Source: a virus. From it: a stretch of DNA of 64,000 nt. Below the pieces are notes generated by a model. The model was not told where the DNA came from, searched no databases, and saw nothing but the letters and a program-made list of their open reading frames with translations. Made by a program: the position numbers and the translations under genes. Numbering within the stretch: the first letter of the stretch is position 1; each line of letters begins with the position of its first letter. Shown piece by piece: positions 746 through 54,370 of this stretch. The stretch spans positions 43,555 to 107,554 of the IMG/VR virus record IMGVR_UViG_3300028909_000018, one strand, 5' to 3'.

Positions 746-821
746 TGGTAGTCCGTGTCAGGTTCGAACTGACAACCTTGGAATTAAAAGTTCCTTGCTC
801 CACCCATTGAGCTAACGGACT
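746..821 (-). tRNA. tRNA-Lys(UUU)
   Basis: cloverleaf, anticodon loop CTTTTAA, GTTCGAAC T-arm, encoded CCA. Confidence 0.92.
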
Positions 822-825
822 GGAA

Positions 826-902
826 TGGTAGACTTGGAGTGATTCGGACACTCGACCTTTCGCTTAAGAGGCGTCTGCTCTAACCAACTGAGCTACAAGT
901 CC
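826..902 (-). tRNA. tRNA-Lys(CUU), atypical T-loop (TCCGAAT)
   Basis: cloverleaf, loop CTCTTAA, encoded CCA; GATAAATA just upstream. Confidence 0.88.
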
Positions 903-908
903 AAAAAG

Positions 909-1121
909 TTATTTATCTTTCCTGTTTCTGATGTAATCCTCGACGTTCAAAAGATTCCTGAGCATTTCTCTACGCGCCATCGCATATTCAGGTCCAAGAA
1001 CCAGAAGATCATTAGTCAAACGATTAAACAGAACACGAAGTTTTTCCAGTTCTTCATCAGTGACATGATCACCGTAGTAAAACTTTTTATAAATTCCGGC
1101 CAACTCTGTATCAAATCTCAT
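909..1121 (-). CDS. hypothetical protein
   Basis: 70-aa ORF with AGAGGA RBS. Confidence 0.65.
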   Translation of the reverse strand: MRFDTELAGIYKKFYYGDHVTDEELEKLRVLFNRLTNDLLVLGPEYAMARREMLRNLLNVEDYIRNRKDK

Positions 1122-1146: not shown

Positions 1147-1440
1147 GGGAGACTCGCGGTATCACGCGAATAATATACCCCTCTGTGCCTGTCGGTCAGT
1201 AGATAAATGCATGTCATCACACACATTCAGGGCTCCTATCTCATCTCCAAATAAGTTCTGGAGCTATGCCTAGCTTCAACGAGACCGATTTTACTCGTCC
1301 CTCCACTCCTAACATTAATTTAAGTCCCGCCCTCCAGATAGCGGTTCCGAGGTAGTTCCCGATCTCGTCCTAGAACACGTCTACCTGTGTTCAGGACCAG
1401 CCAGATAGCGACTCTGGCAATTCCGTAATCTTACTCTCCC
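1147..1440 (-). ncRNA. candidate large structured ncRNA (~295 nt)
   Basis: ORF-free interval; terminal GGGAGA/UCUCCC helix, many internal hairpins, a 10-bp long-range helix, possible pseudoknot. Confidence 0.6.
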
Positions 1441-1442
1441 TC

Positions 1443-1874
1443 TTAGAGATTGTCAATGGCCTCTTTTAGAGATTCTAGAGTATCGACACCTTTTTGAGAA
1501 TAACCAACCTTCCATTCTTTTCCGTCCCAAACGTAGGCATATTCCGTCCAACAGTCGGGCATAGGCCATATATATTCCAGAGTCTCGGCTTCAAAAGCCT
1601 TGACATCTTCCCAAGGTTCATTACCACGATCCCTAAAGTAGGCGACACAATAGCCGTCAACCTTATTCTCCCAGCTATGCCCCTTGGGTTTGGTGCATTT
1701 CGGACCAAGAATCGACAAATTCCCCAGCCCGATCAGCTTCTCGGCCTTCTTGGTGGAATTATAATTCTCGAATAATATCTTACCATTATGTCTCACATAA
1801 CCATCCCAATGGCAGTAAATACGACGCCAGACGCCATCCTTACACAAAACAATAATATCACTTCTGGTTCCCAT
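1443..1874 (-). CDS. conserved phage hypothetical protein (MGTRS.I...IYCHWDGY family)
   Basis: recognisable N-terminal motif; AGGAG RBS. Confidence 0.8.
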   Translation of the reverse strand: MGTRSDIIVLCKDGVWRRIYCHWDGYVRHNGKILFENYNSTKKAEKLIGLGNLSILGPKCTKPKGHSWENKVDGYCVAYFRDRGNEPWEDVKAFEAETLEYIWPMPDCWTEYAYVWDGKEWKVGYSQKGVDTLESLKEAIDNL

Positions 1875-4017: not shown

Positions 4018-4373
4018 TAAATTATTCCTTTTACTTCCTTAATTTTCTTAAGCTTGGCACCAATAAGATCAAACGACTCATTATCGATCAGCCAATCGTT
4101 CTTGCGAGTCTTATTAATTTGATCACGCCTTGCGAGACTCAACATCATATAGGCATATTCAAGCAATTTTTCTGTTGAATAGTTGTCAGGATCGTAGGTC
4201 ATTTTTATTCTCCCCGAATGAATGTCAAAAGACGATTTAGAAAATTGATTTCATTATCAATTTCCCAATAACTGTCTCCCTTATCAGAGAGACAGGATTG
4301 TTCGATAATTCTCATAGCGAGGCGGGTTTTAATCATACCCGCCGTGTTTATGAGTTTTTCTTTATTATCCATA

Positions 4374-5262: not shown

Positions 5263-5589
5263 AACTAGCCTTTCACGCCATATTACTGTGCATACCGTAT
5301 TCTCATAGATGGCGGAAACACCCATATCCGACATGGACTCCCTTTCGAGAGCAATCTGTTTAGCAAACAGTTGCCGATCCCCTCGGCTTGTCATTTCCAT
5401 TAAATTTGGCGGAAGAGTGGCTGTGTCGATCACCATACGATTACTCATCGTACCATCCGATTTCAAGTCGGTGAAGGGAGCCGTCCCTCATACTCTTCCA
5501 TATTTCTATTTATTCTTTTTAATTTAGTATTTTGACCTTTGTATGTTAGCGTCTGAGAATGACAATTAGGACATATAACCATAAGATTT

Positions 5590-5772
5590 TTATTTGAAAT
5601 CCGAAGGTACGGTTTCAATCCAAGTTTGTTTTTCATCAGAAACATACAAAACCTTGTCATAATTCTCGAAAAACTCCTTACTATCCACGTCATCCCGGAA
5701 ATTCCGAAGATGCTCGTTTATCTGATCATTGTCAAGTCCCTTATCGACCCTAACGTGAAAAATATATTTCAT
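5590..5772 (-). CDS. hypothetical protein
   Basis: AGGAG RBS before MKYIFHV. Confidence 0.55.
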   Translation of the reverse strand: MKYIFHVRVDKGLDNDQINEHLRNFRDDVDSKEFFENYDKVLYVSDEKQTWIETVPSDFK

Positions 5773-5782
5773 TTTTTTTCTC

Positions 5783-6787
5783 CTATTTAAAATAAAGTAA
5801 ACGAGTGTCACCCACGAGATGACGGTTTGTTGATGTGGACTGAATGAAAAGTTCATACTGTCCATGATCCTTCGGAGAGACACGAACCTCACGATCCGTT
5901 GGAAGGCCTAGAAGATCACGAGCATCATCGCCAGAATAGGTCTTTCCAGACTTCTTATGCTTGATACAAATTTTCTTTGATGCCTGCACCTTCTCAGATT
6001 TATTTAGCTGATAATATGCCGAACCAATATTATATTCTCCAAAATGCTCGATACAGAAGTCGCGAATCTCAGTCTTGTTATACTTCTCAGGAACCCATAG
6101 AATTTGAACCTTGTCGGTGATATCATCAAGATTACGCTTGACTTCAGATATGGAGACATTCGAAAGGTCTGTGTAGAACGAGCTAGAACTGGTTAGACCA
6201 CGAGTACGATCACTGAAATAAGCCCGTGTGGCCTGTGTCGAAACCTGTGTGGACTGACGAAGACCCTTCTCGGTGACTTCCCATTCGATGACGTTGCCAA
6301 CGGGAATACCAAGATTGGTGATGTATGAACCATAACCCTTGGGAACACGGAAGGCGAAAGTCCACTTATCAGTAGACTGGAGATGACGGATACGAGATGC
6401 AACCTGTGGGGCTATTTCGCCGTGAACATTATTTCCACCGTCAGTGATAACCATGATCAGGTAGGCGGTATCGCTATTCTCGTTTTCCTCGGAAATTGTA
6501 TCAATCATCAAATTAATGGCATCTAGAAGCGGCGTCGATCCACCATTCGCATAGTAGGATGTAATATTTCTAAGCGTCGCGACGTTCTCGTCTTTGATGA
6601 TGACGCGATTTATGGTTCTAAAGTTGACGGCCACGCCACATTCCACGACAGTCACAAGACCCTTGTGGTTCTTGTCGATGGAAGACTTCAGACTATCAAC
6701 GGTAAGGTTGTAATCGTTGATGGCTCCTGTGATATACGACTGCATGGAGCCGGAATGATCACGAATAATACCAATTTTAGTTTTCAT
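5783..6787 (-). CDS. von Willebrand factor A (VWA) domain protein
   Basis: MIDAS DHSGS, STPLLDA, ITDG. Confidence 0.85.
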   Translation of the reverse strand: MKTKIGIIRDHSGSMQSYITGAINDYNLTVDSLKSSIDKNHKGLVTVVECGVAVNFRTINRVIIKDENVATLRNITSYYANGGSTPLLDAINLMIDTISEENENSDTAYLIMVITDGGNNVHGEIAPQVASRIRHLQSTDKWTFAFRVPKGYGSYITNLGIPVGNVIEWEVTEKGLRQSTQVSTQATRAYFSDRTRGLTSSSSFYTDLSNVSISEVKRNLDDITDKVQILWVPEKYNKTEIRDFCIEHFGEYNIGSAYYQLNKSEKVQASKKICIKHKKSGKTYSGDDARDLLGLPTDREVRVSPKDHGQYELFIQSTSTNRHLVGDTRLLYFK

Positions 6788-22732: not shown

Positions 22733-25447
22733 TCAAAATGTACATCCTCCCGCGACACAGGCCAATTCCTGCGTATTTGTTGTTGAGTCTTCCTTCTCGA
22801 ATTCAACCAGTGACGACCAGTCAACGTTCTGAGGCATCTTCGCCACCAGACTTTCATATTCTTCTGAATTACACTCGGTGAATGGTGCCTGCTGATAGAC
22901 AGTATCACCCTCTTCGGCAGGCAAGAACGAAACGCCGCTCATCCATTCAAAGTTTTTATAGACCCATGCGCCGACTTCCAACCATTCATCTTCCTTGACG
23001 GAGATGGTGACGGAAGGCTTATGCTCACAATAATCCTTCTGATAGGCCAACCAAAGTTCAAGATGTTCGATGGCCGAGATTTCCTTACGCCCGATGGAGC
23101 CGGGAGCAGACTTGATTGGAAATTTAAAACAGACGACATTCTTTGGGTCCATCACATCAGTCTCCCATGGGAAGCCAGCATCCATCATGAACTTCGTCAG
23201 AGGGTCTTTCAGATCGTTTCTCACATACCGCACATAGGTTGGTGAGTAGGATGGATGGAAGCCTGATGAGGTTCCGTTGAAGGCCGACGAGGTACCTTCT
23301 GGCTTGATACAGGTGATGGCGACGGAGGCATTGATGCCGATTTCCTTGGCCACCTTCATATTTGTTCTGATGGCTTCCGCCTTCATAGAAGTTCGGAAAT
23401 TTTCAAAATCAAATTGAGCATTTTCATCAAACTCATTATTCTCATAGGCCTGACCATTCGTCCAACCATTATCGAAGACGCCATTGAGAGAGACACCCAG
23501 CAAACGCTCTTCCTCACAATTACGCTGCCACTTCTTTTTCAGATATTTAAAATCTGTGAAGCAAGACTGGAAGGTGCCAAGGATCGTCGCCAACTTGATT
23601 TTATTCAGGATGGATTGCTTACTGTCATCCTCATAAATCTGGACTGATGTCAGGTTACAGAATTCATAGGGACGTAGAATGATTTCCGCGCAATTATGGA
23701 CAACAATAAAATCTGCAATAAAATTATGAGTGTCTTCCACACTAAGATCATAAACATCTGTAATCGGTCCTTCTTGAATAGAAATTACATTTGCATATTG
23801 ATGTAAATTGCTTTTTAAATCTTCTGGGATAGGAATAATTACCTTGGCCCCATGTCTAGAATTTTCGGGAGAAATAAATCCAATATTATTTACACATTTA
23901 TCATTATATCCCACAACCCCATGATTATTTGGCTGTTCTATGCCGGTTAAACGCGCATGATCTTCATGAGACAAACATTCTAAATTATCAATATCATTAT
24001 TATATGTATCTCCATCAATATGATGTACATCATATCCGACAGGAATTTTTCCATAGTAAGCCTCGAAAACTAATCTATGTTCCATCACAATTTCTTGTTT
24101 TGTTTGTGTGGTTAATTTTACACCAGAATATGCTGCCCCCCTACGATTTCTGGTAAGATGAACTACTCTATCACCAATTTTTATATTCTGTGCTTCCAGC
24201 CACCCACGACCTTCTACATAAATCTTATGGTCGGGTGTACAAATCAATTCTTTACAAGAAGAAATTGTAATTTTCAATGTATTAGCCTTTTTCTTACTAA
24301 TCCAAGAAGCAGAAGAATTTCTAATACAAAGTTTACCATTTTTGTCCATAGAATAAACCATGGTTGGTTCCTTAATATCTTTAATTTTTACTCTTCCATG
24401 GATCGTTTCGACCATACTATCGGGATGAAGACATGGATTTACCCCGAATTCATGGTTGGTGTCACGTTGCGGAGCATCCTCAAAGTTGATTGAACGATAT
24501 TCGTTGGCGTTGTCAATCACGCGCCTGATGGCCTTGCGGGAGACGATCCCACGTTCCCCAGAATGAGACTCGTAAAGGCTCAACCATTCCTTCATGAAGA
24601 CGCCCATGTCGGGCTTCTCATTATATACAGCCGAGTTATTGGCGAGGCGACGATAAGGATTGGTCTTCCACCACGTCCCGCTCTTGGCGTCGCGCATACG
24701 GTCATCATTAAGGTCGGAGAGCGAGATAAGCGCCGAACGACGCACACCACCAACCACGACGATATCCGCCACCTTACAGGCTATATCATGTGCCTCTAGC
24801 GTGGTGAGACGACGACCAGCCGCCTTCTTGAAGGTGTTGAGTGTGAAGCGTAGAAGTTCGACCAATGGGTCCGGTCCACTAGAACGACCACCCATGGTCT
24901 TCAGACGAGCCCCGGCAGGCCGAAGCTTGCTCACGTCCCACTTGGGTATTTGACCAATCATCAACAGGCTCAAAAACTCGCGGTAGCCCTTGGACCAGCC
25001 AAGGCGAGAGTCATCAAAGATGATGGTTGTGTCTGACTCAAAGAAGGTGTCGGGCAACTCAGGAAGCTGCTTGACGTTATCCGACTCGACGGAATAGCCG
25101 ACGCCTGTGCCTGACATGAGGATGGCCATTTCCTCATCGAACGACTTCATGTCATCCATCGGAAGGTAGGCGCAATTATACAGGGCGACATGGTTCTTCT
25201 TCGCGGCGGGACCAGCCGTCATCAGAGCCCTCATCGAAGGCATGATATCATGGTTCAGAACGGCATTGTATAATTCGTCATAGTAAGGAGCGATATCGTA
25301 GTTATGCTTCTCCTTCAAAGACTCCCCAATGAAATCAAAGTATCTTTTTACGGTCTCTGACCAAGTCTCTCGTCTATTCTTACTATCAATGTATCGTGCA
25401 TACCGGCTCGTAAAAATGAACTGTGAATATAGTGAATCCTTAAACAT
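22733..25447 (-). CDS. nrdJ: class II (B12-dependent) ribonucleotide reductase with intein
   Basis: PSMRALM.AG, YNC, G.GVG, VVVGGVRRSA.I, NP|CAEI, CNL, TCIKPEGT, C-terminal C.GG.C. Confidence 0.92.
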   Translation of the reverse strand: MFKDSLYSQFIFTSRYARYIDSKNRRETWSETVKRYFDFIGESLKEKHNYDIAPYYDELYNAVLNHDIMPSMRALMTAGPAAKKNHVALYNCAYLPMDDMKSFDEEMAILMSGTGVGYSVESDNVKQLPELPDTFFESDTTIIFDDSRLGWSKGYREFLSLLMIGQIPKWDVSKLRPAGARLKTMGGRSSGPDPLVELLRFTLNTFKKAAGRRLTTLEAHDIACKVADIVVVGGVRRSALISLSDLNDDRMRDAKSGTWWKTNPYRRLANNSAVYNEKPDMGVFMKEWLSLYESHSGERGIVSRKAIRRVIDNANEYRSINFEDAPQRDTNHEFGVNPCLHPDSMVETIHGRVKIKDIKEPTMVYSMDKNGKLCIRNSSASWISKKKANTLKITISSCKELICTPDHKIYVEGRGWLEAQNIKIGDRVVHLTRNRRGAAYSGVKLTTQTKQEIVMEHRLVFEAYYGKIPVGYDVHHIDGDTYNNDIDNLECLSHEDHARLTGIEQPNNHGVVGYNDKCVNNIGFISPENSRHGAKVIIPIPEDLKSNLHQYANVISIQEGPITDVYDLSVEDTHNFIADFIVVHNCAEIILRPYEFCNLTSVQIYEDDSKQSILNKIKLATILGTFQSCFTDFKYLKKKWQRNCEEERLLGVSLNGVFDNGWTNGQAYENNEFDENAQFDFENFRTSMKAEAIRTNMKVAKEIGINASVAITCIKPEGTSSAFNGTSSGFHPSYSPTYVRYVRNDLKDPLTKFMMDAGFPWETDVMDPKNVVCFKFPIKSAPGSIGRKEISAIEHLELWLAYQKDYCEHKPSVTISVKEDEWLEVGAWVYKNFEWMSGVSFLPAEEGDTVYQQAPFTECNSEEYESLVAKMPQNVDWSSLVEFEKEDSTTNTQELACVAGGCTF
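23693..24433 (-). mobile_element. intein with HNH homing endonuclease (247 aa)
   Basis: begins C-LHPDS, TPDH block B, VYDLSVEDTHNF..VHN/C end; HRLV...HHIDG..NN..NL HNH motif; AT-rich insert. Confidence 0.92.
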
Positions 25448-25790
25448 CTTGCTCCTTATTATTTTTATTTTTTATGAAATCTCTGTAATCGTCTTTTAAA
25501 TCACCGTTGTCGTCATAACAACCATATCCATTGTTGACGTATTGATCATATGCTTCTAACACGGATACTGGTAACGGCGGTTCTTTTTCTTTTCTTGTGA
25601 TTATTACTTCTTGTGTATAGAAGTTTCCATCATAATCACAAAGACATTCACCTATCACATAATGTTGAAAAACTACCTTCCAAATACTAGACTTGATTTG
25701 TTGACGTGTATACTCATTATTAGGTTCGAAGAGATGATAAGAAACAGCCGCCTTTATATCTTCAATAAAATTTAGTGGTGTTTCACTCAT
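25440..25790 (-). CDS. small protein with a tail-sheath-like LFEPNN..TR segment
   Basis: YHLFEPNNEYTRQQI resembles gp18 YRLFELNNAFTR. Confidence 0.55.
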   Translation of the reverse strand: MSETPLNFIEDIKAAVSYHLFEPNNEYTRQQIKSSIWKVVFQHYVIGECLCDYDGNFYTQEVIITRKEKEPPLPVSVLEAYDQYVNNGYGCYDDNGDLKDDYRDFIKNKNNKEQDV

Positions 25791-39227: not shown

Positions 39228-42200
39228 TTACTGTGGACCGTGGCCTATACCACCGTAATTTGTGAACAGTTTTTTAATTCGTTCATCGGGTGGAGACACA
39301 GGACCGGCCTCATGCTTCTCCTTTTTGATATCCTTGGCACCATCTTTATCATGAGATTTTAGTTCTGTAAAGAGTTTTTGCATGGCGTCTTGAGGTTTCT
39401 CATTAGGTTTAGAGGCATCCTTGTTGATAGCCGTCTGATTAATCTGGGCTGCGTAGTTTATAAGGTCTGGCTTTTGAATCAATGAATCTAGGTCGGTGTC
39501 TTCTGACTTGTAGAAGTTAGAATCCATCAATTTACTTCCATCATAACCGGCGTCACTTCGACCTTTCATGTTGTCCATTCTACTTCCATCATAACCGGCG
39601 TCTTTACGACCTCGCATGTTGTCCAGACTTCCATCATAAAAGGCGTCATCACGGCCTTTCATGTTGTCCATAGAATTAGGTCTTCCTCTTCCCAGCATCT
39701 TAGGATCGATTAACTTATGTTGCCATCTCTCGGCATTGGCCTTTATTTCAATAGCTTCTTTTTCGTCATCGTCTCTTGGCTGAAGACCACCCGCTCTATT
39801 CTTCATTTCCATAATTCTGTTATTATCAAACATAGAATCATTACGACCCATCATGCCTGCATCACTATCCCGAGAATTGAAACCGCCTAATCTTCCATGC
39901 ATGTTAAAACGAGGATCATGATTTTCTTTCCATCTATTGGCATTGGCCTTTATTTCGGCAGCTTCTCTCTGATCGTCTGTTGGTTGAATACCCATACGGC
40001 CCATCATGCCTGCATCACCGGCCATAGGATTGGAACCACCAAATCTTCCATGCATGTCAGCATGAAGATCATGACCACGATTTCTCATCTGACCAAATCG
40101 TTTGTCGCCATCAAATCCTGAGTCGTCACGGCCCATCATGCCGTTGACACCATCAGTATGTTGTTCAAGAACTTTACCTACAGAGTAGGCAATATTTTGA
40201 GCGGCAGCAACGATGGAAGGATGTGAAGCTTCGGCAGGAGTTTGATCATAATGCTCAGGGTGTTCCTGTCGATATAATGGATTTTGATTTCCATTTAATG
40301 GATTACCCTGACTATCTCTTATTGGAGAATAATTCTTGCCTGCGGATTCACCAAAACCATCCCTAGGAAGCCAATGAAGTCTTTCGTTTACTCCCATTTT
40401 TTCTCTTATATTATGAAATTGTTCAACAATACCCATTTCTCTTGCACCTGTAGCAGGATTAATTCTATATCCCGCAATAGTTCCTGCATGGTCTAAATGA
40501 GCATGGCGTGTCCCCCCTCCCCCACCAGCATATTTGTCGGATTCCGACCCATCTCTATTTAAATGTGTGGAAACAGGTGTTCCAATAGGCAAATCCTTAT
40601 CGAAGGCATTTTCACCTTTTTTAAATGTCCATTGATGAACATTTGATCCGTCTTGGCCCGACCCTTTTCTGACGCCAACACTTGCCATCGCCAAAGAAAC
40701 ACACTCATCATCCGTTATTAATCCTTTATCACGCATGGCCTTTACGTGGTCTAAGACCTGATCCGATGTCTTTAAATCGTTCACCCCACCACCAGAACCG
40801 CCACCAGATTCGTTTCCAATACTTCCCCCGCCCTTAAATCCGGGAGTACCCATACCCTGATCATAGTAATCTTGGGCTCTCTGCATATGTTTTTCAAATG
40901 CAGGAACACCGGGACCACCTTCTCTCATTCCTTCAAAATGTGTTTCCCAAGAATGTGCCGAACCTCTGGCGGTAGATTCATTCTTTATATGAGGAATTAC
41001 ATGTTTATACGTTGTTTCTAATTCATGATCCATAAATCCTTCATTGGCTTCATAACTGGAAGGATTTAACTTATGTTCCTTTGACCATTCAAGAAATGCA
41101 GTTCTACGTGGTCCTGTCCACTGTGCGTATCCATATCCCGATCCAGTTCCAGAATGACCAATTTCTTGTAGAGTTTTAAAATTACCACTTTCATAACCCA
41201 TCACACCAACGGGACCAGTCGCCTGTTCTCTGGTCAGACCATATTTTTCCATCAGATGCTTTGTGAGTTTATCACCAATAGCGGCACCAGCACCACCAAT
41301 ATGACCACCACCACCAGAACCGCCGCCCGAACCTTGTGTTATTGTGTGATCACCACCACCAGAACCGCCGCCCGAACCTTGTGTTATTGTGTGATCACCA
41401 CCAAGCTTTCTTCCAAGAATATCAGCCGCGCCTTGGTTTCTCTGAGCATCGACGGTCTGGCCGAATGTTGGTTGTGTTTGATCAGGAGACACAGAATCGA
41501 CGCCTCCACCGACAGGAAGGGCTACTTGGCCGGTACTTCTCGTGGCGGCAATCTGCTGTTGTGGTGTCTGTATAATATCACCACTCTGAAGCGCCTTGAT
41601 CTGGCTTTCCTTCTGGGCCTTGTCCTTACTCAGATCATCAATTTCTTTTTGAATCTCTTCCTTACGTTTATCGACGGCAGGATTATGCTTTCCGCTCTTG
41701 TCCATCTCATCAAGCTTCTGAACAATCTTCATGAGTGCTTCACGCTGTATTGCAAGATTAGAGTCGTCTTCCTTCACACCGGCCTGTAATTTCTGCGACT
41801 GAAGACTATTATAATAATCCTTTAGGTCTTTTGGACTGTCATTTTCATGACCTCCACTCAAAGGAGTATGATTTTCTCCTTTGTTTCCCCAATTAAGAGC
41901 AGCAGCCAAACCTCCGCCTATCAGACCAGCAGCCAAACCTCCGCCCATCAGACCTTCACTCAAAAATCCCTTAAGACTTCCTAGAAGTTTACTTCCCCAT
42001 TGAACGGCCTTGATTTCCATCCCATCCTTGGCAAGGTCTCCAAAACCCCCGCCGCCACCTGAACCTCCACCGCCACCGCCACCGCCAGAACCTCCACCAC
42101 CCAAAACTAATCTTTCAAGCAGAGAGTTAGTTTTTCTGTTTTCGGTCAGCATGGAGTCAAGAAGAACACCATGGGTCACATTATGCTGATTTATTTGTTC

Positions 42201-54292: not shown

Positions 54293-54370
54293 TGGTGCTT
54301 GTGGAGGGACTCGAACCCACAACCTAGGGATTTAGAATCCCCCGCTCTGACCAAATTGAGCTACACAAGC
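54293..54370 (-). tRNA. amber suppressor tRNA (CUA)
   Basis: full cloverleaf; anticodon arm GGGGA-TTCTAAA-TCCCT puts CTA at 34-36; A73, CCA. Confidence 0.88.

What the first reader, a model, noticed from the sequence alone, without database searches (positions are those of the whole stretch)
1147..1440. ~295-nt highly structured non-coding RNA candidate upstream of the tRNA-Lys pair
This is an ORF-free gap in an otherwise gene-dense region. On the minus strand the ends pair (GGGAGA 1435-1440 with UCUCCC 1147-1152). Internal hairpins include GCCAGA/UCUGGC, GUCCUGAACAC/GUGUUCUAGGAC, CCGC/GCGG, AGCUA/UAGCU, CUCCAGA/UUUGGAG, AUGUGUGU/ACAUGCAU and CGCG/CGCG. A 10-bp long-range helix joins ACGAGAUCGG (1359-1368) and UCGGUCUCGU (1279-1288). 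Loop AGGUAG (1381-1386) is complementary to CUACCU (1350-1355), suggesting a pseudoknot. CGCUAUCUGG occurs twice, with a complementary AGAUAG downstream. Large ornate RNAs such as GOLLD and ROOL are known near phage tRNAs, but I cannot assign this one to a family.
Basis: partly seen in the sequence, partly recalled or inferred. Interest (0 to 1): 0.8.

Follow-up and report, generated by a model that had tools for sequence, protein, structure and literature searches.

The report
New structured RNA beside phage tRNA-Lys
A roughly 275-base gene-free stretch in an uncultivated T4-like peat phage is a real, conserved, pseudoknotted RNA of no known family that sits just upstream of the phage's two lysine tRNA genes in all three lineages found; its job is not known.

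Summary
Rfam 15 has no match, and the stretch is not coding.

Two relatives were found. A close one (L083; L195 carries the same sequence) is 92-94% identical across the RNA. Fourfold-degenerate sites of neighbouring genes are only about 73% identical, so the nucleotides are under selection. A distant one (L210) lies directly before its own tRNA-Lys(CUU)/tRNA-Lys(UUU) pair.

A covariance model built only from the two close sequences aligns L210 end to end (35.6 bits, E 2e-7). A sequence-only model finds nothing there. Across hairpins H1, H2 and H3 and the proposed pseudoknot, 96% of cells pair and 13 of 26 pairs changed on both sides. H4 and H6 also show compensatory changes.

The closing stem lies in a promoter spacer and is coding in L083. 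The 10-bp long-range helix is no longer than chance gives and is broken in L083. H5, H7 and H8 remain unsettled.

Best reading: a new phage RNA family of about 270-280 nt, made as the head of the tRNA-Lys transcript. Its function is unknown. Only three lineages are known, and no expression data exist.

The parts
1451..1456 (-). -35-like hexamer TTGACA, inside the last codons of the upstream ORF
   Evidence: Promoter scan: TTGACA, 17 nt, TAAGAT, 10 of 12. The hexamer is unchanged in L083 while the spacer has 4 changes. It is also present at the end of the unrelated upstream ORF of L210.
1428..1433 (-). -10-like hexamer TAAGAT; a start would fall near 1421
   Evidence: In L210 the -10 is poor and the scan calls no promoter there, so the promoter is an inference.
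1150..1421 (-). Body of the RNA, about 272 nt (positions 20-291 counted from 1440)
   Evidence: 94% identical to L083, against 73% at fourfold sites of neighbouring genes. Homologous to L210:5521-5791. No Rfam match.
1400..1418 (-). H1: 6-bp hairpin whose loop holds the conserved UCGCU
   Evidence: All 6 pairs are kept in L210 and 5 of them changed on both sides. The loop core is conserved, and the spacing to the H2 loop is 24 nt in all three sequences.
1369..1395 (-). H2: 9-bp hairpin with one bulged U and an 8-nt loop (1379-1386)
   Evidence: 6 of 9 pairs changed on both sides in L210, with one U-U mismatch. The bulged U is deleted in L083. L210's own minimum-energy fold gives the same hairpin and loop.
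1350..1355 (-). 3' strand of the pseudoknot, pairing with H2 loop bases 1381-1386
   Evidence: 5 of 6 pairs are kept in L210, with one U-A to C-G exchange. These pairs were not in the covariance model used to align L210.
1356..1368 (-). Variable linker that would cross H2 in the pseudoknot
   Evidence: 4 of 10 bases differ in L083, and a hybrid population contig carries the same changes. It is not alignable in L210. This is the 5' arm of the rejected 10-bp helix.
1327..1344 (-). H3: 5-bp hairpin carrying the second copy of the repeated 10-mer, with a GGAG loop
   Evidence: In L210, one pair changed on both sides, one changed on one side and one is lost. The helix is 2 bp longer there.
1313..1324 (-). 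12-nt block CUUAAAUUAAUG, unchanged in the window and L210 (one G is inserted in L083)
1266..1315 (-). H4: long irregular hairpin with a conserved internal loop (GGAGG opposite GAA)
   Evidence: The base (5 bp) and middle (3 bp, 2 changed on both sides) are kept in L210. The tip is replaced there by a shorter hairpin (and reading).
1232..1264 (-). H5 region: fold unsettled; holds the 10-nt block ACUUAUUUGG (1247-1256), identical in the window and L210, with one change in L083
Evidence: The predicted inner stem is not kept in L210 (4 non-standard pairs).
1206..1227 (-). H6: 9-bp hairpin with loop GAUG
   Evidence: Window against L083: one G-C to U-A exchange, two wobble pairs turned into Watson-Crick pairs, and a matched A/U insertion that adds a pair. 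A hairpin of similar shape lies at the matching place in L210. The wobble pairs form only on the minus strand.
1172..1199 (-). Second, weaker promoter-like site (CTGACC, 16 nt, TATATT)
   Evidence: Both hexamers are unchanged in L083, and the only change falls in the spacer. Inference only.
1152..1172 (-).
   Evidence: Predicted. It is identical in L083, so that comparison says nothing. No matching hairpin aligns in L210.
909..1121 (-). Variable small ORF (70 aa) between the RNA and the tRNAs
   Evidence: L083 has an unrelated 63-aa ORF here, with the junction at the start codon. L210 has no ORF here.
746..902 (-). tRNA-Lys(CUU) 826-902 and tRNA-Lys(UUU) 746-821, the conserved downstream partners
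   Evidence: The same pair, in the same order, follows the RNA in L083 and L210.

Best explanation
The stretch encodes a previously undescribed structured RNA of about 270-280 nt, on the minus strand. Its 5' half folds into a hairpin (H1), an H-type pseudoknot (hairpin H2, whose loop pairs with a strand about 25 nt downstream) and a third hairpin (H3). A long irregular hairpin (H4) and further hairpins follow. Several single-stranded blocks are strictly conserved.

It forms the head of the transcription unit that carries the phage's tRNA-Lys(CUU) and tRNA-Lys(UUU) genes. Inferred: it is made early from a sigma-70-type promoter whose -35 lies in the end of the upstream ORF. Transcription then runs on into the tRNAs, and RNase P cutting at the tRNA 5' end frees the RNA. 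It would then act as a stable RNA through its conserved loops, on a partner tied to the phage's lysine-tRNA supply.

Shown here: conservation, the helices, the strand and the linkage to tRNA-Lys. Inferred: the promoter, co-transcription, processing and any role.
For: Not coding: stops in all six frames, and four 1-nt indels against L083.

Selection: the RNA is 92.5-94.4% identical to L083. Fourfold-degenerate sites of six neighbouring genes are 73% identical (123 of 460 differ), and the flanking genes are replaced or only 61% identical in protein. The changes cluster in short patches at near-neutral rate between invariant blocks.

Covariation: model R1, built from the window and L083 only, aligns L210:5521-5625 over its full length (35.6 bits, E 2e-7). 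The sequence-only model R2 gives no hit there. On that alignment with the pseudoknot added, 26 pairs show 96% of cells paired and 13 pairs changed on both sides. Slid controls give 0-3 such pairs, and 0 of 500 shuffles reach the observed values. Window-to-L210 identity is 30% in stem columns and 70% in unpaired columns. H4 and H6 have further compensatory changes.

Strand: several helices need G-U pairs, which form only on the minus strand.

Linkage: the RNA precedes the same two tRNA-Lys genes in all three lineages, while the upstream gene and the genes beyond the tRNAs differ. In L210 it ends right at the tRNA 5' end.

Promoter: TTGACA, 17 nt, TAAGAT, with conserved hexamers and a variable spacer. 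The -35 is kept in L210.
Against: Only three lineages are known, and two are nearly identical. The covariation therefore rests on a single distant comparison, on an alignment fitted to the model for H1-H3.

The folding energy is modest (z -2.0, -2.5 and -1.5). It is ordinary for this genome once composition is allowed for. L083 keeps its fold energy no better than 10% of random mutants do.

L210 has no acceptable -10, and the scan calls no promoter there. No clear terminator bounds the RNA.

H5, H7 and H8 are not confirmed. Recombination within the element is seen in the population, so part of the high identity to L083 could come from exchange rather than selection.
Confidence: 0.65

Rival explanations
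1. It is a cis-acting leader (an attenuator or riboswitch-like sensor). Its fold would decide whether transcription or translation proceeds into the downstream genes. It would not be a free-standing RNA.
For: It lies at the 5' end of the unit, with no clear terminator of its own. The ribosome-binding site after it is conserved in L083 even though the ORF behind it differs. The consensus fold of the two close sequences pairs CCUC with the Shine-Dalgarno GAGG.
Against: That pairing is only 4 bp. L210 has no ORF and no such site between the RNA and the tRNAs. No pair of alternative terminator and antiterminator folds was found. The Rfam riboswitch and T-box models give nothing.
Confidence: 0.2
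2. The constraint acts on DNA rather than RNA. The stretch would be a cluster of promoters and PeSL-type promoter/stem-loop cassettes, or a replication origin with repeats, that also serves as a recombination joint for swapping small ORFs.
For: There are two promoter-like sites with conserved hexamers. The small ORF next to the element is swapped exactly at the border, as described for PeSLs (PMC2839356, PMC4122927). A 10-mer occurs as a direct repeat. H1 of L210 is flagged as terminator-like.
Against: About 270 nt are constrained, far more than two promoters need. Stems change by compensation while loops stay fixed, and the G-U pairs work on one strand only. The element is single-copy in the genome, unlike PeSLs.
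Confidence: 0.08
3. It is a decayed gene or a neutral spacer whose helices are chance.
For: Folding energy is ordinary for the genome, and a 10-11 bp helix is expected by chance.
Against: It diverges about four times more slowly than fourfold-degenerate sites. It is recognisable in a phage whose tRNA-Lys genes are only 58-66% identical. It shows 13 double changes that keep pairs.
Confidence: 0.03
4. It codes for protein: either a plus-strand frame read through TAG by the phage's CUA suppressor tRNA, or the 30-aa minus-strand ORF 1134-1226.
For: Plus-strand frame 843-1775 is interrupted only by TAG, and a tRNA with anticodon CUA is present. The 30-aa ORF has a good Shine-Dalgarno sequence.
Against: The plus frame is antisense to two tRNAs and two real genes. 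Four 1-nt indels against L083 shift any frame. The 30-aa ORF becomes start-stop mini-frames in L083. Reading TAG through lengthens ORFs less than reading TAA or TGA through.
Confidence: 0.01

Closest known systems
T4 RNA C and RNA D (small stable RNAs of the T4 tRNA region)
   Same: They are non-coding RNAs encoded within the tRNA region of a T4-type phage, and their role is unknown (PMC3014915).
   Different: From my own knowledge, the T4 RNAs are about 120-140 nt; this one is about 275 nt with a pseudoknot. No DNA similarity to any record of the phage collection was found. I presume that collection includes T4 but did not check. There is no Rfam model to test against.
GOLLD and ROOL (large ornate phage and prophage RNAs)
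   Same: They are phage-encoded, elaborately structured with pseudoknots, often sit near tRNA islands, and have unknown function (bioRxiv 10.1101/2024.12.08.627333).
   Different: The Rfam models do not match. GOLLD often exceeds 800 nt, and from my own knowledge ROOL is about 580 nt, so this RNA is about half to a third of their size. Nothing here bears on cage-like assemblies.
PeSL cassettes of T4-type phages
   Same: A sigma-70-like early promoter next to a stem-loop, in a region of small variable ORFs, at the border of an ORF swap (PMC2839356, PMC4122927).
   Different: PeSLs span about 100 bp and are repeated tens of times per genome. This element spans about 300 bp, is single-copy, and is constrained as a folded RNA.
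T-box leaders
   Same: A structured 5' leader of 200-300 nt functionally tied to one tRNA species.
   Different: RF00230 gives no match. There is no terminator/antiterminator pair. The triplet at the place where a specifier might sit differs between lineages and is not a Lys codon (reading). The element lies before tRNA genes, not before a synthetase gene.
tmRNA
   Same: Similar size, with pseudoknots. In the window the two ends can pair.
   Different: ARAGORN and the Rfam tmRNA models find nothing. The end pairing is not conserved. There is no G3-U70 pair, no T-arm and no conserved tag frame.

Membership tests
Any Rfam 15 family (4227 models) | Score at or above the family's gathering threshold | tested here: not met
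   no match in 1120-1460 apart from sR1 at 18.1 bits, against a threshold of 45.
Archaeal C/D-box sRNA (sR1, RF01152) | C, D', C' and D boxes conserved, in a host that has the C/D RNP | tested here: not met
   18.1 bits against 45. The D' box CUGA reads CCGA in L083. The C' box is simply the loop of H6.
tmRNA | tRNA-like domain (acceptor stem with G3-U70, T-arm) plus a tag reading frame | tested here: not met
   ARAGORN finds none and Rfam finds none. The end stem is broken in L083, and no frame is conserved.
T-box leader | Stem I with a specifier codon, the T-box sequence, and competing terminator and antiterminator folds | tested here: not met
   RF00230 gives no hit at E up to 10. No terminator follows the element.
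GOLLD / ROOL | Match to the family covariance model | tested here: not met
PeSL | Sigma-70 consensus promoter with an adjacent stem-loop | tested here: inconclusive
   TTGACA, 17 nt, TAAGAT followed by H1 fits in the window and L083. The -10 is poor in L210.
PeSL | A motif of about 100 bp repeated many times in the genome's variable regions | tested here: not met
   The element occurs once in the 107.5-kb record. Its 10-mer occurs only within it.
T4 RNA C / RNA D | Sequence similarity to the T4 RNAs | tested here: not met
   blastn of 900-1900 against 50,697 phage records found no match. I did not check that T4 is among those records.
T4 RNA C / RNA D | Stable RNA processed from the tRNA precursor transcript | not testable with these tools
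   No RNA-holding run was available.
Group I intron | Match to RF00028, with exons that join into one gene | tested here: not met
   No Rfam hit. The downstream ORF is replaced in L083 and absent in L210.

The most novel reading that the evidence does not exclude
The RNA is a working part of a lysine-tRNA counter-defence module. One version: it senses the state of tRNA-Lys and gates expression of the phage's own tRNA-Lys genes. Another: it acts as a decoy or inhibitor for a host nuclease that cuts tRNA-Lys, such as the PrrC or PARIS-type anticodon nucleases (named from my own knowledge). Its strict linkage to the tRNA-Lys(CUU)/tRNA-Lys(UUU) pair across lineages, in a phage that also carries two RNA ligases, is compatible with this. 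It is not evidence for it.
Probability: 0.12. Interest if true: 0.85.

Novelty: new variant of a known kind. Interest (0 to 1): 0.6.

Why it matters
Structured RNAs encoded next to phage tRNA genes (T4 RNA C and D, GOLLD, ROOL) form a recurring class, and none has a known function. This one is small enough to probe and solve. It has a clean pseudoknotted 5' domain with strictly conserved loops. In all three lineages found it is tied to one tRNA species, tRNA-Lys. From my own knowledge, tRNA-Lys is the target of several bacterial anticodon nucleases. That gives a concrete hypothesis to test. If the RNA proves to act with tRNA-Lys, it would be among the first functions assigned to this class.

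Tried and rejected
**Known families and other readings**
- Rfam on the window, on 900-1900, on 1120-1460 and on the 9 kb upstream gave only tRNAs and sub-threshold noise.
- Coding readings were rejected.
- tmRNA or tRNA-like ends were rejected.
- An intron splitting one gene was rejected.
- A T-box-like specifier, a C/D box and a kink-turn in the H4 loop were considered from the sequence and are not supported.

**Searches for more homologues**
- blastn against 50,697 phage records found no match.
- Loci around homologues of the 143-aa upstream protein hold no RNA homologue.
- The 70-aa ORF has no relatives.
- Whole records of 45 related viral contigs hold none.
- DNA patterns in viral contigs returned only L106, which is the L083 contig, plus unrelated repeats.
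- One metagenome scan returned only L195, identical to the L083 type.
- Two scans of genome contigs returned chance hits only.
- Earlier-findings look-ups returned only re-reads of this same stretch.

**Expression**
- No RNA holder was listed among the sequencing runs.
- Laid contigs showed only the two known haplotypes and one hybrid.

**Structure tests that gave little**
- The random-mutant test gave p = 0.10.
- The genome-wide energy rank was ordinary.
- The H5 fold was not kept in L210.
- Duplex prediction against the tRNAs and the anti-Shine-Dalgarno sequence was uninformative.
- Shine-Dalgarno-like words are enriched only modestly: 11 against 5.6 in shuffles, p 0.045.

Full report
**Setting.** The window is the right-hand 64 kb of a 107.5-kb IMG/VR viral contig. 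Its genes mark it as a distant T4-type myovirus:
- a gp5-like baseplate hub;
- Rnl1- and Rnl2-like RNA ligases, Dda- and gp41-like helicases and a ribonucleotide reductase;
- a gp41 protein about 50% identical to those of cyanomyoviruses.

Near-identical DNA occurs in some 20 peat and freshwater metagenome runs. The finding lies among short minus-strand early genes and tRNA genes. The order on the minus strand is: ORF 1443-1874 (143 aa, PHROG 1987/23089, unknown function), the 321-nt gap, ORF 909-1121 (70 aa), tRNA-Lys(CUU) 826-902, tRNA-Lys(UUU) 746-821, then a DUF3307 membrane protein.

**The observation.** Thermodynamics alone is weak evidence:
- The 294-nt stretch folds with z -2.5 on the minus strand and z -3.1 on the plus strand.
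- The conserved 272-nt body gives z -2.0.
- Against 1193 windows of the same genome, corrected for composition, the body is ordinary (z -0.5).
- A helix of 10 bp or more turns up in 82 of 100 shuffles.

**Not coding, not a known RNA.** All six frames carry stops. The one plus-strand frame interrupted only by TAG is antisense to two tRNAs and two genes. Four single-base indels against the close relative rule out any conserved frame. The 30-aa ORF 1134-1226 collapses to start-stop frames there. Rfam 15 gives nothing but an 18-bit C/D-box look-alike. ARAGORN finds no tmRNA.

**Relatives.** Using the nearby gp5-like protein as bait gave L083, from a 14.7-kb contig. Its protein is 90% identical, and it holds the RNA at 4024-4341 (nhmmer E 1.5e-76). 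A metagenome contig, L195, carries the same sequence type. Using the conserved 93-aa protein 73-354 as bait gave L210, from a 12.2-kb contig whose protein is 62% identical. L210 holds a diverged copy at about 5521-5791 (nhmmer E 9e-7). Nothing else was found in the viral, metagenome, genome or phage collections, nor in 45 related viral records.

**Selection.** Between the window and L083, 123 of 460 fourfold-degenerate sites in six neighbouring genes differ (73% identity). The RNA is 92.5-94.4% identical and the tRNAs 98.7%. The element is an island. The ORF downstream is replaced outright, and the ORF upstream is only 61% identical in protein. Differences inside the RNA fall in short patches (the linker 1356-1368 and hairpin H6) that diverge at about the neutral rate, between blocks that are almost invariant. 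A population contig is a hybrid of the two types. Exchange therefore happens here, but the fine-grained patchwork fits selection better than one recent transfer.

**Structure.** Between the window and L083, H6 (1206-1227) shows one G-C to U-A exchange, two wobble pairs turned into Watson-Crick pairs, and a matched A/U insertion that adds a pair.

The stronger test is L210. I built model R1 from the window and L083 only, with H1, H2 and H3 as its structure. It aligns L210:5521-5625 over all 109 positions (35.6 bits, E 2e-7). A model of the same alignment without structure finds nothing in L210.

I then counted pairs on that alignment with the pseudoknot added. The pseudoknot was not part of the model. 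Of 26 pairs, 96% of cells pair and 13 pairs changed on both sides: 5 in H1, 6 in H2, 1 in the pseudoknot and 1 in H3. Partners slid by 1-3 columns give 0-3 such pairs, and no shuffle among 500 reaches the observed values.

Other observations agree:
- The distance between the H1 and H2 loops is 24 nt in all three sequences. The other anchor distances differ by at most 2 nt.
- Identity between the window and L210 is 30% in stem columns and 70% in unpaired columns.
- L210's own minimum-energy fold gives H2 with the same 8-nt loop.
- In L210's locus, hairpins of the H1 and H2 kinds occur at 0.5% and 0.3% of positions.
- H4 keeps its base and middle stem in L210, with two more double changes. Its tip is replaced there.

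The helices contain G-U pairs that would be A-C on the other strand, so the RNA is read from the minus strand, the same strand as the tRNAs.

**What fails.** The closing stem loses two of its six pairs in L083. Its 5' arm lies between the -35 and -10 hexamers, and in L083 it is part of the upstream ORF. The 10-bp long-range helix has three mismatches in L083, with no compensation, and is no longer than chance gives. Its 5' arm is the variable linker. H7 and H8 could not be tested.

**Transcription unit.** On the minus strand, TTGACA, 17 nt, TAAGAT lies at 1456-1428. Both hexamers are unchanged in L083 while the spacer has four changes. The same -35 sits at the end of L210's unrelated upstream ORF, at the same distance from H1. 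Other early genes of this phage have the same kind of promoter. L210 has only a poor -10, so the promoter remains an inference. No convincing terminator follows the RNA. In L210 the RNA runs up to the 5' end of tRNA-Lys(CUU) with no ORF between them. The conserved module is therefore the RNA followed by the two tRNA-Lys genes. The small ORF in the window and L083 is a variable insert.

**Mechanism.** The most likely course is as follows. Host RNA polymerase makes the RNA early, as the 5' part of the tRNA-Lys precursor. The 5' domain folds into the hairpin, pseudoknot and hairpin core. RNase P cutting at the tRNA frees the RNA. Its invariant loops and junctions then bind a partner. These include the H1 loop, the H2 loop, the GGAG-bearing H3 loop, the 12-nt junction 1313-1324, the H4 internal loop and the block 1247-1256. 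Conservation, the helices, the strand and the linkage are shown. The promoter, co-transcription, processing and role are inferred.

**Comparison with known systems.** The RNA behaves like the small stable RNAs of the T4 tRNA region, whose role is unknown (PMC3014915). It shares with GOLLD and ROOL the habit of lying near phage tRNA islands. It is not a member of any of these families by any test I could run. PeSL cassettes (PMC2839356, PMC4122927) may explain the promoter, H1 and the ORF swap at its border, but not 270 nt of RNA-level constraint in a single-copy element.

**Limits.** The scan had read this same stretch twice before, in overlapping windows, but had not found it on other DNA.

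Noticed in passing
window 54293-54370 (-): A tRNA with anticodon CUA, which would read TAG. ARAGORN calls it Pyl, and the Rfam tRNA model scores it 69.7 bits, the best tRNA in the window. Reading TAG through lengthens ORFs less than reading TAA or TGA through, so there is no sign of genome-wide TAG recoding.
   Followed up: partly
window 909-1121 (-) against L083:3831-4022 (-): The small ORF between the RNA and the tRNAs is swapped. It is a 70-aa protein in the window and an unrelated 63-aa protein with two CxxC pairs in L083. The junction is exactly at the start codon, behind a conserved ribosome-binding site.
   Followed up: partly
window 1360-1423, run X6 contig: One peat contig carries the L083-type changes in the 5' part of the RNA but the window type from about 1359 down to 703. 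This is a recombinant between the two haplotypes, with the crossover inside the invariant core.
   Followed up: partly
G000:C1:40053-40324 and 40953-41224 (3.2 and 2.3 kb before the window start): On the minus strand these are the most strongly folding 272-nt windows of the genome after correcting for composition (z -5.1 and -3.5), far above the finding itself. No Rfam family matches there.
   Followed up: no
L208:6591-6662 (-) = G000:C1:42590-42661: Rfam's tRNA model scores 46.6 bits here, but ARAGORN lists no tRNA at this place.
   Followed up: no
window 22733-25471 (-): The ribonucleotide reductase ORF (912 aa) has an HNH endonuclease domain at residues about 430-520, in the middle of the enzyme. 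This suggests an intein or an in-frame insertion.
   Followed up: no
window 1443-1874 (-): The upstream 143-aa protein belongs to a very widespread phage family of unknown function: more than 580 loci in IMG/VR and 312 hits in the protein search. It has an invariant YCHWDG motif and other invariant H, D, R and E residues that look enzyme-like. It is not linked to the RNA, because L210 has another gene there.
   Followed up: partly
L083:5473-5915 against window 2577/2578: L083 carries about 440 extra bases with two small ORFs that the window lacks. This is another insertion or deletion in this variable early region.
   Followed up: no
window 1150-1421 (-): Shine-Dalgarno-like words (GGAG, GAGG, AGGA) occur 11 times in the RNA, against 3.0 in average windows of this genome and 5.6 in shuffles (p 0.045). 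Two of the GGAG-bearing blocks are conserved in L210.
   Followed up: partly
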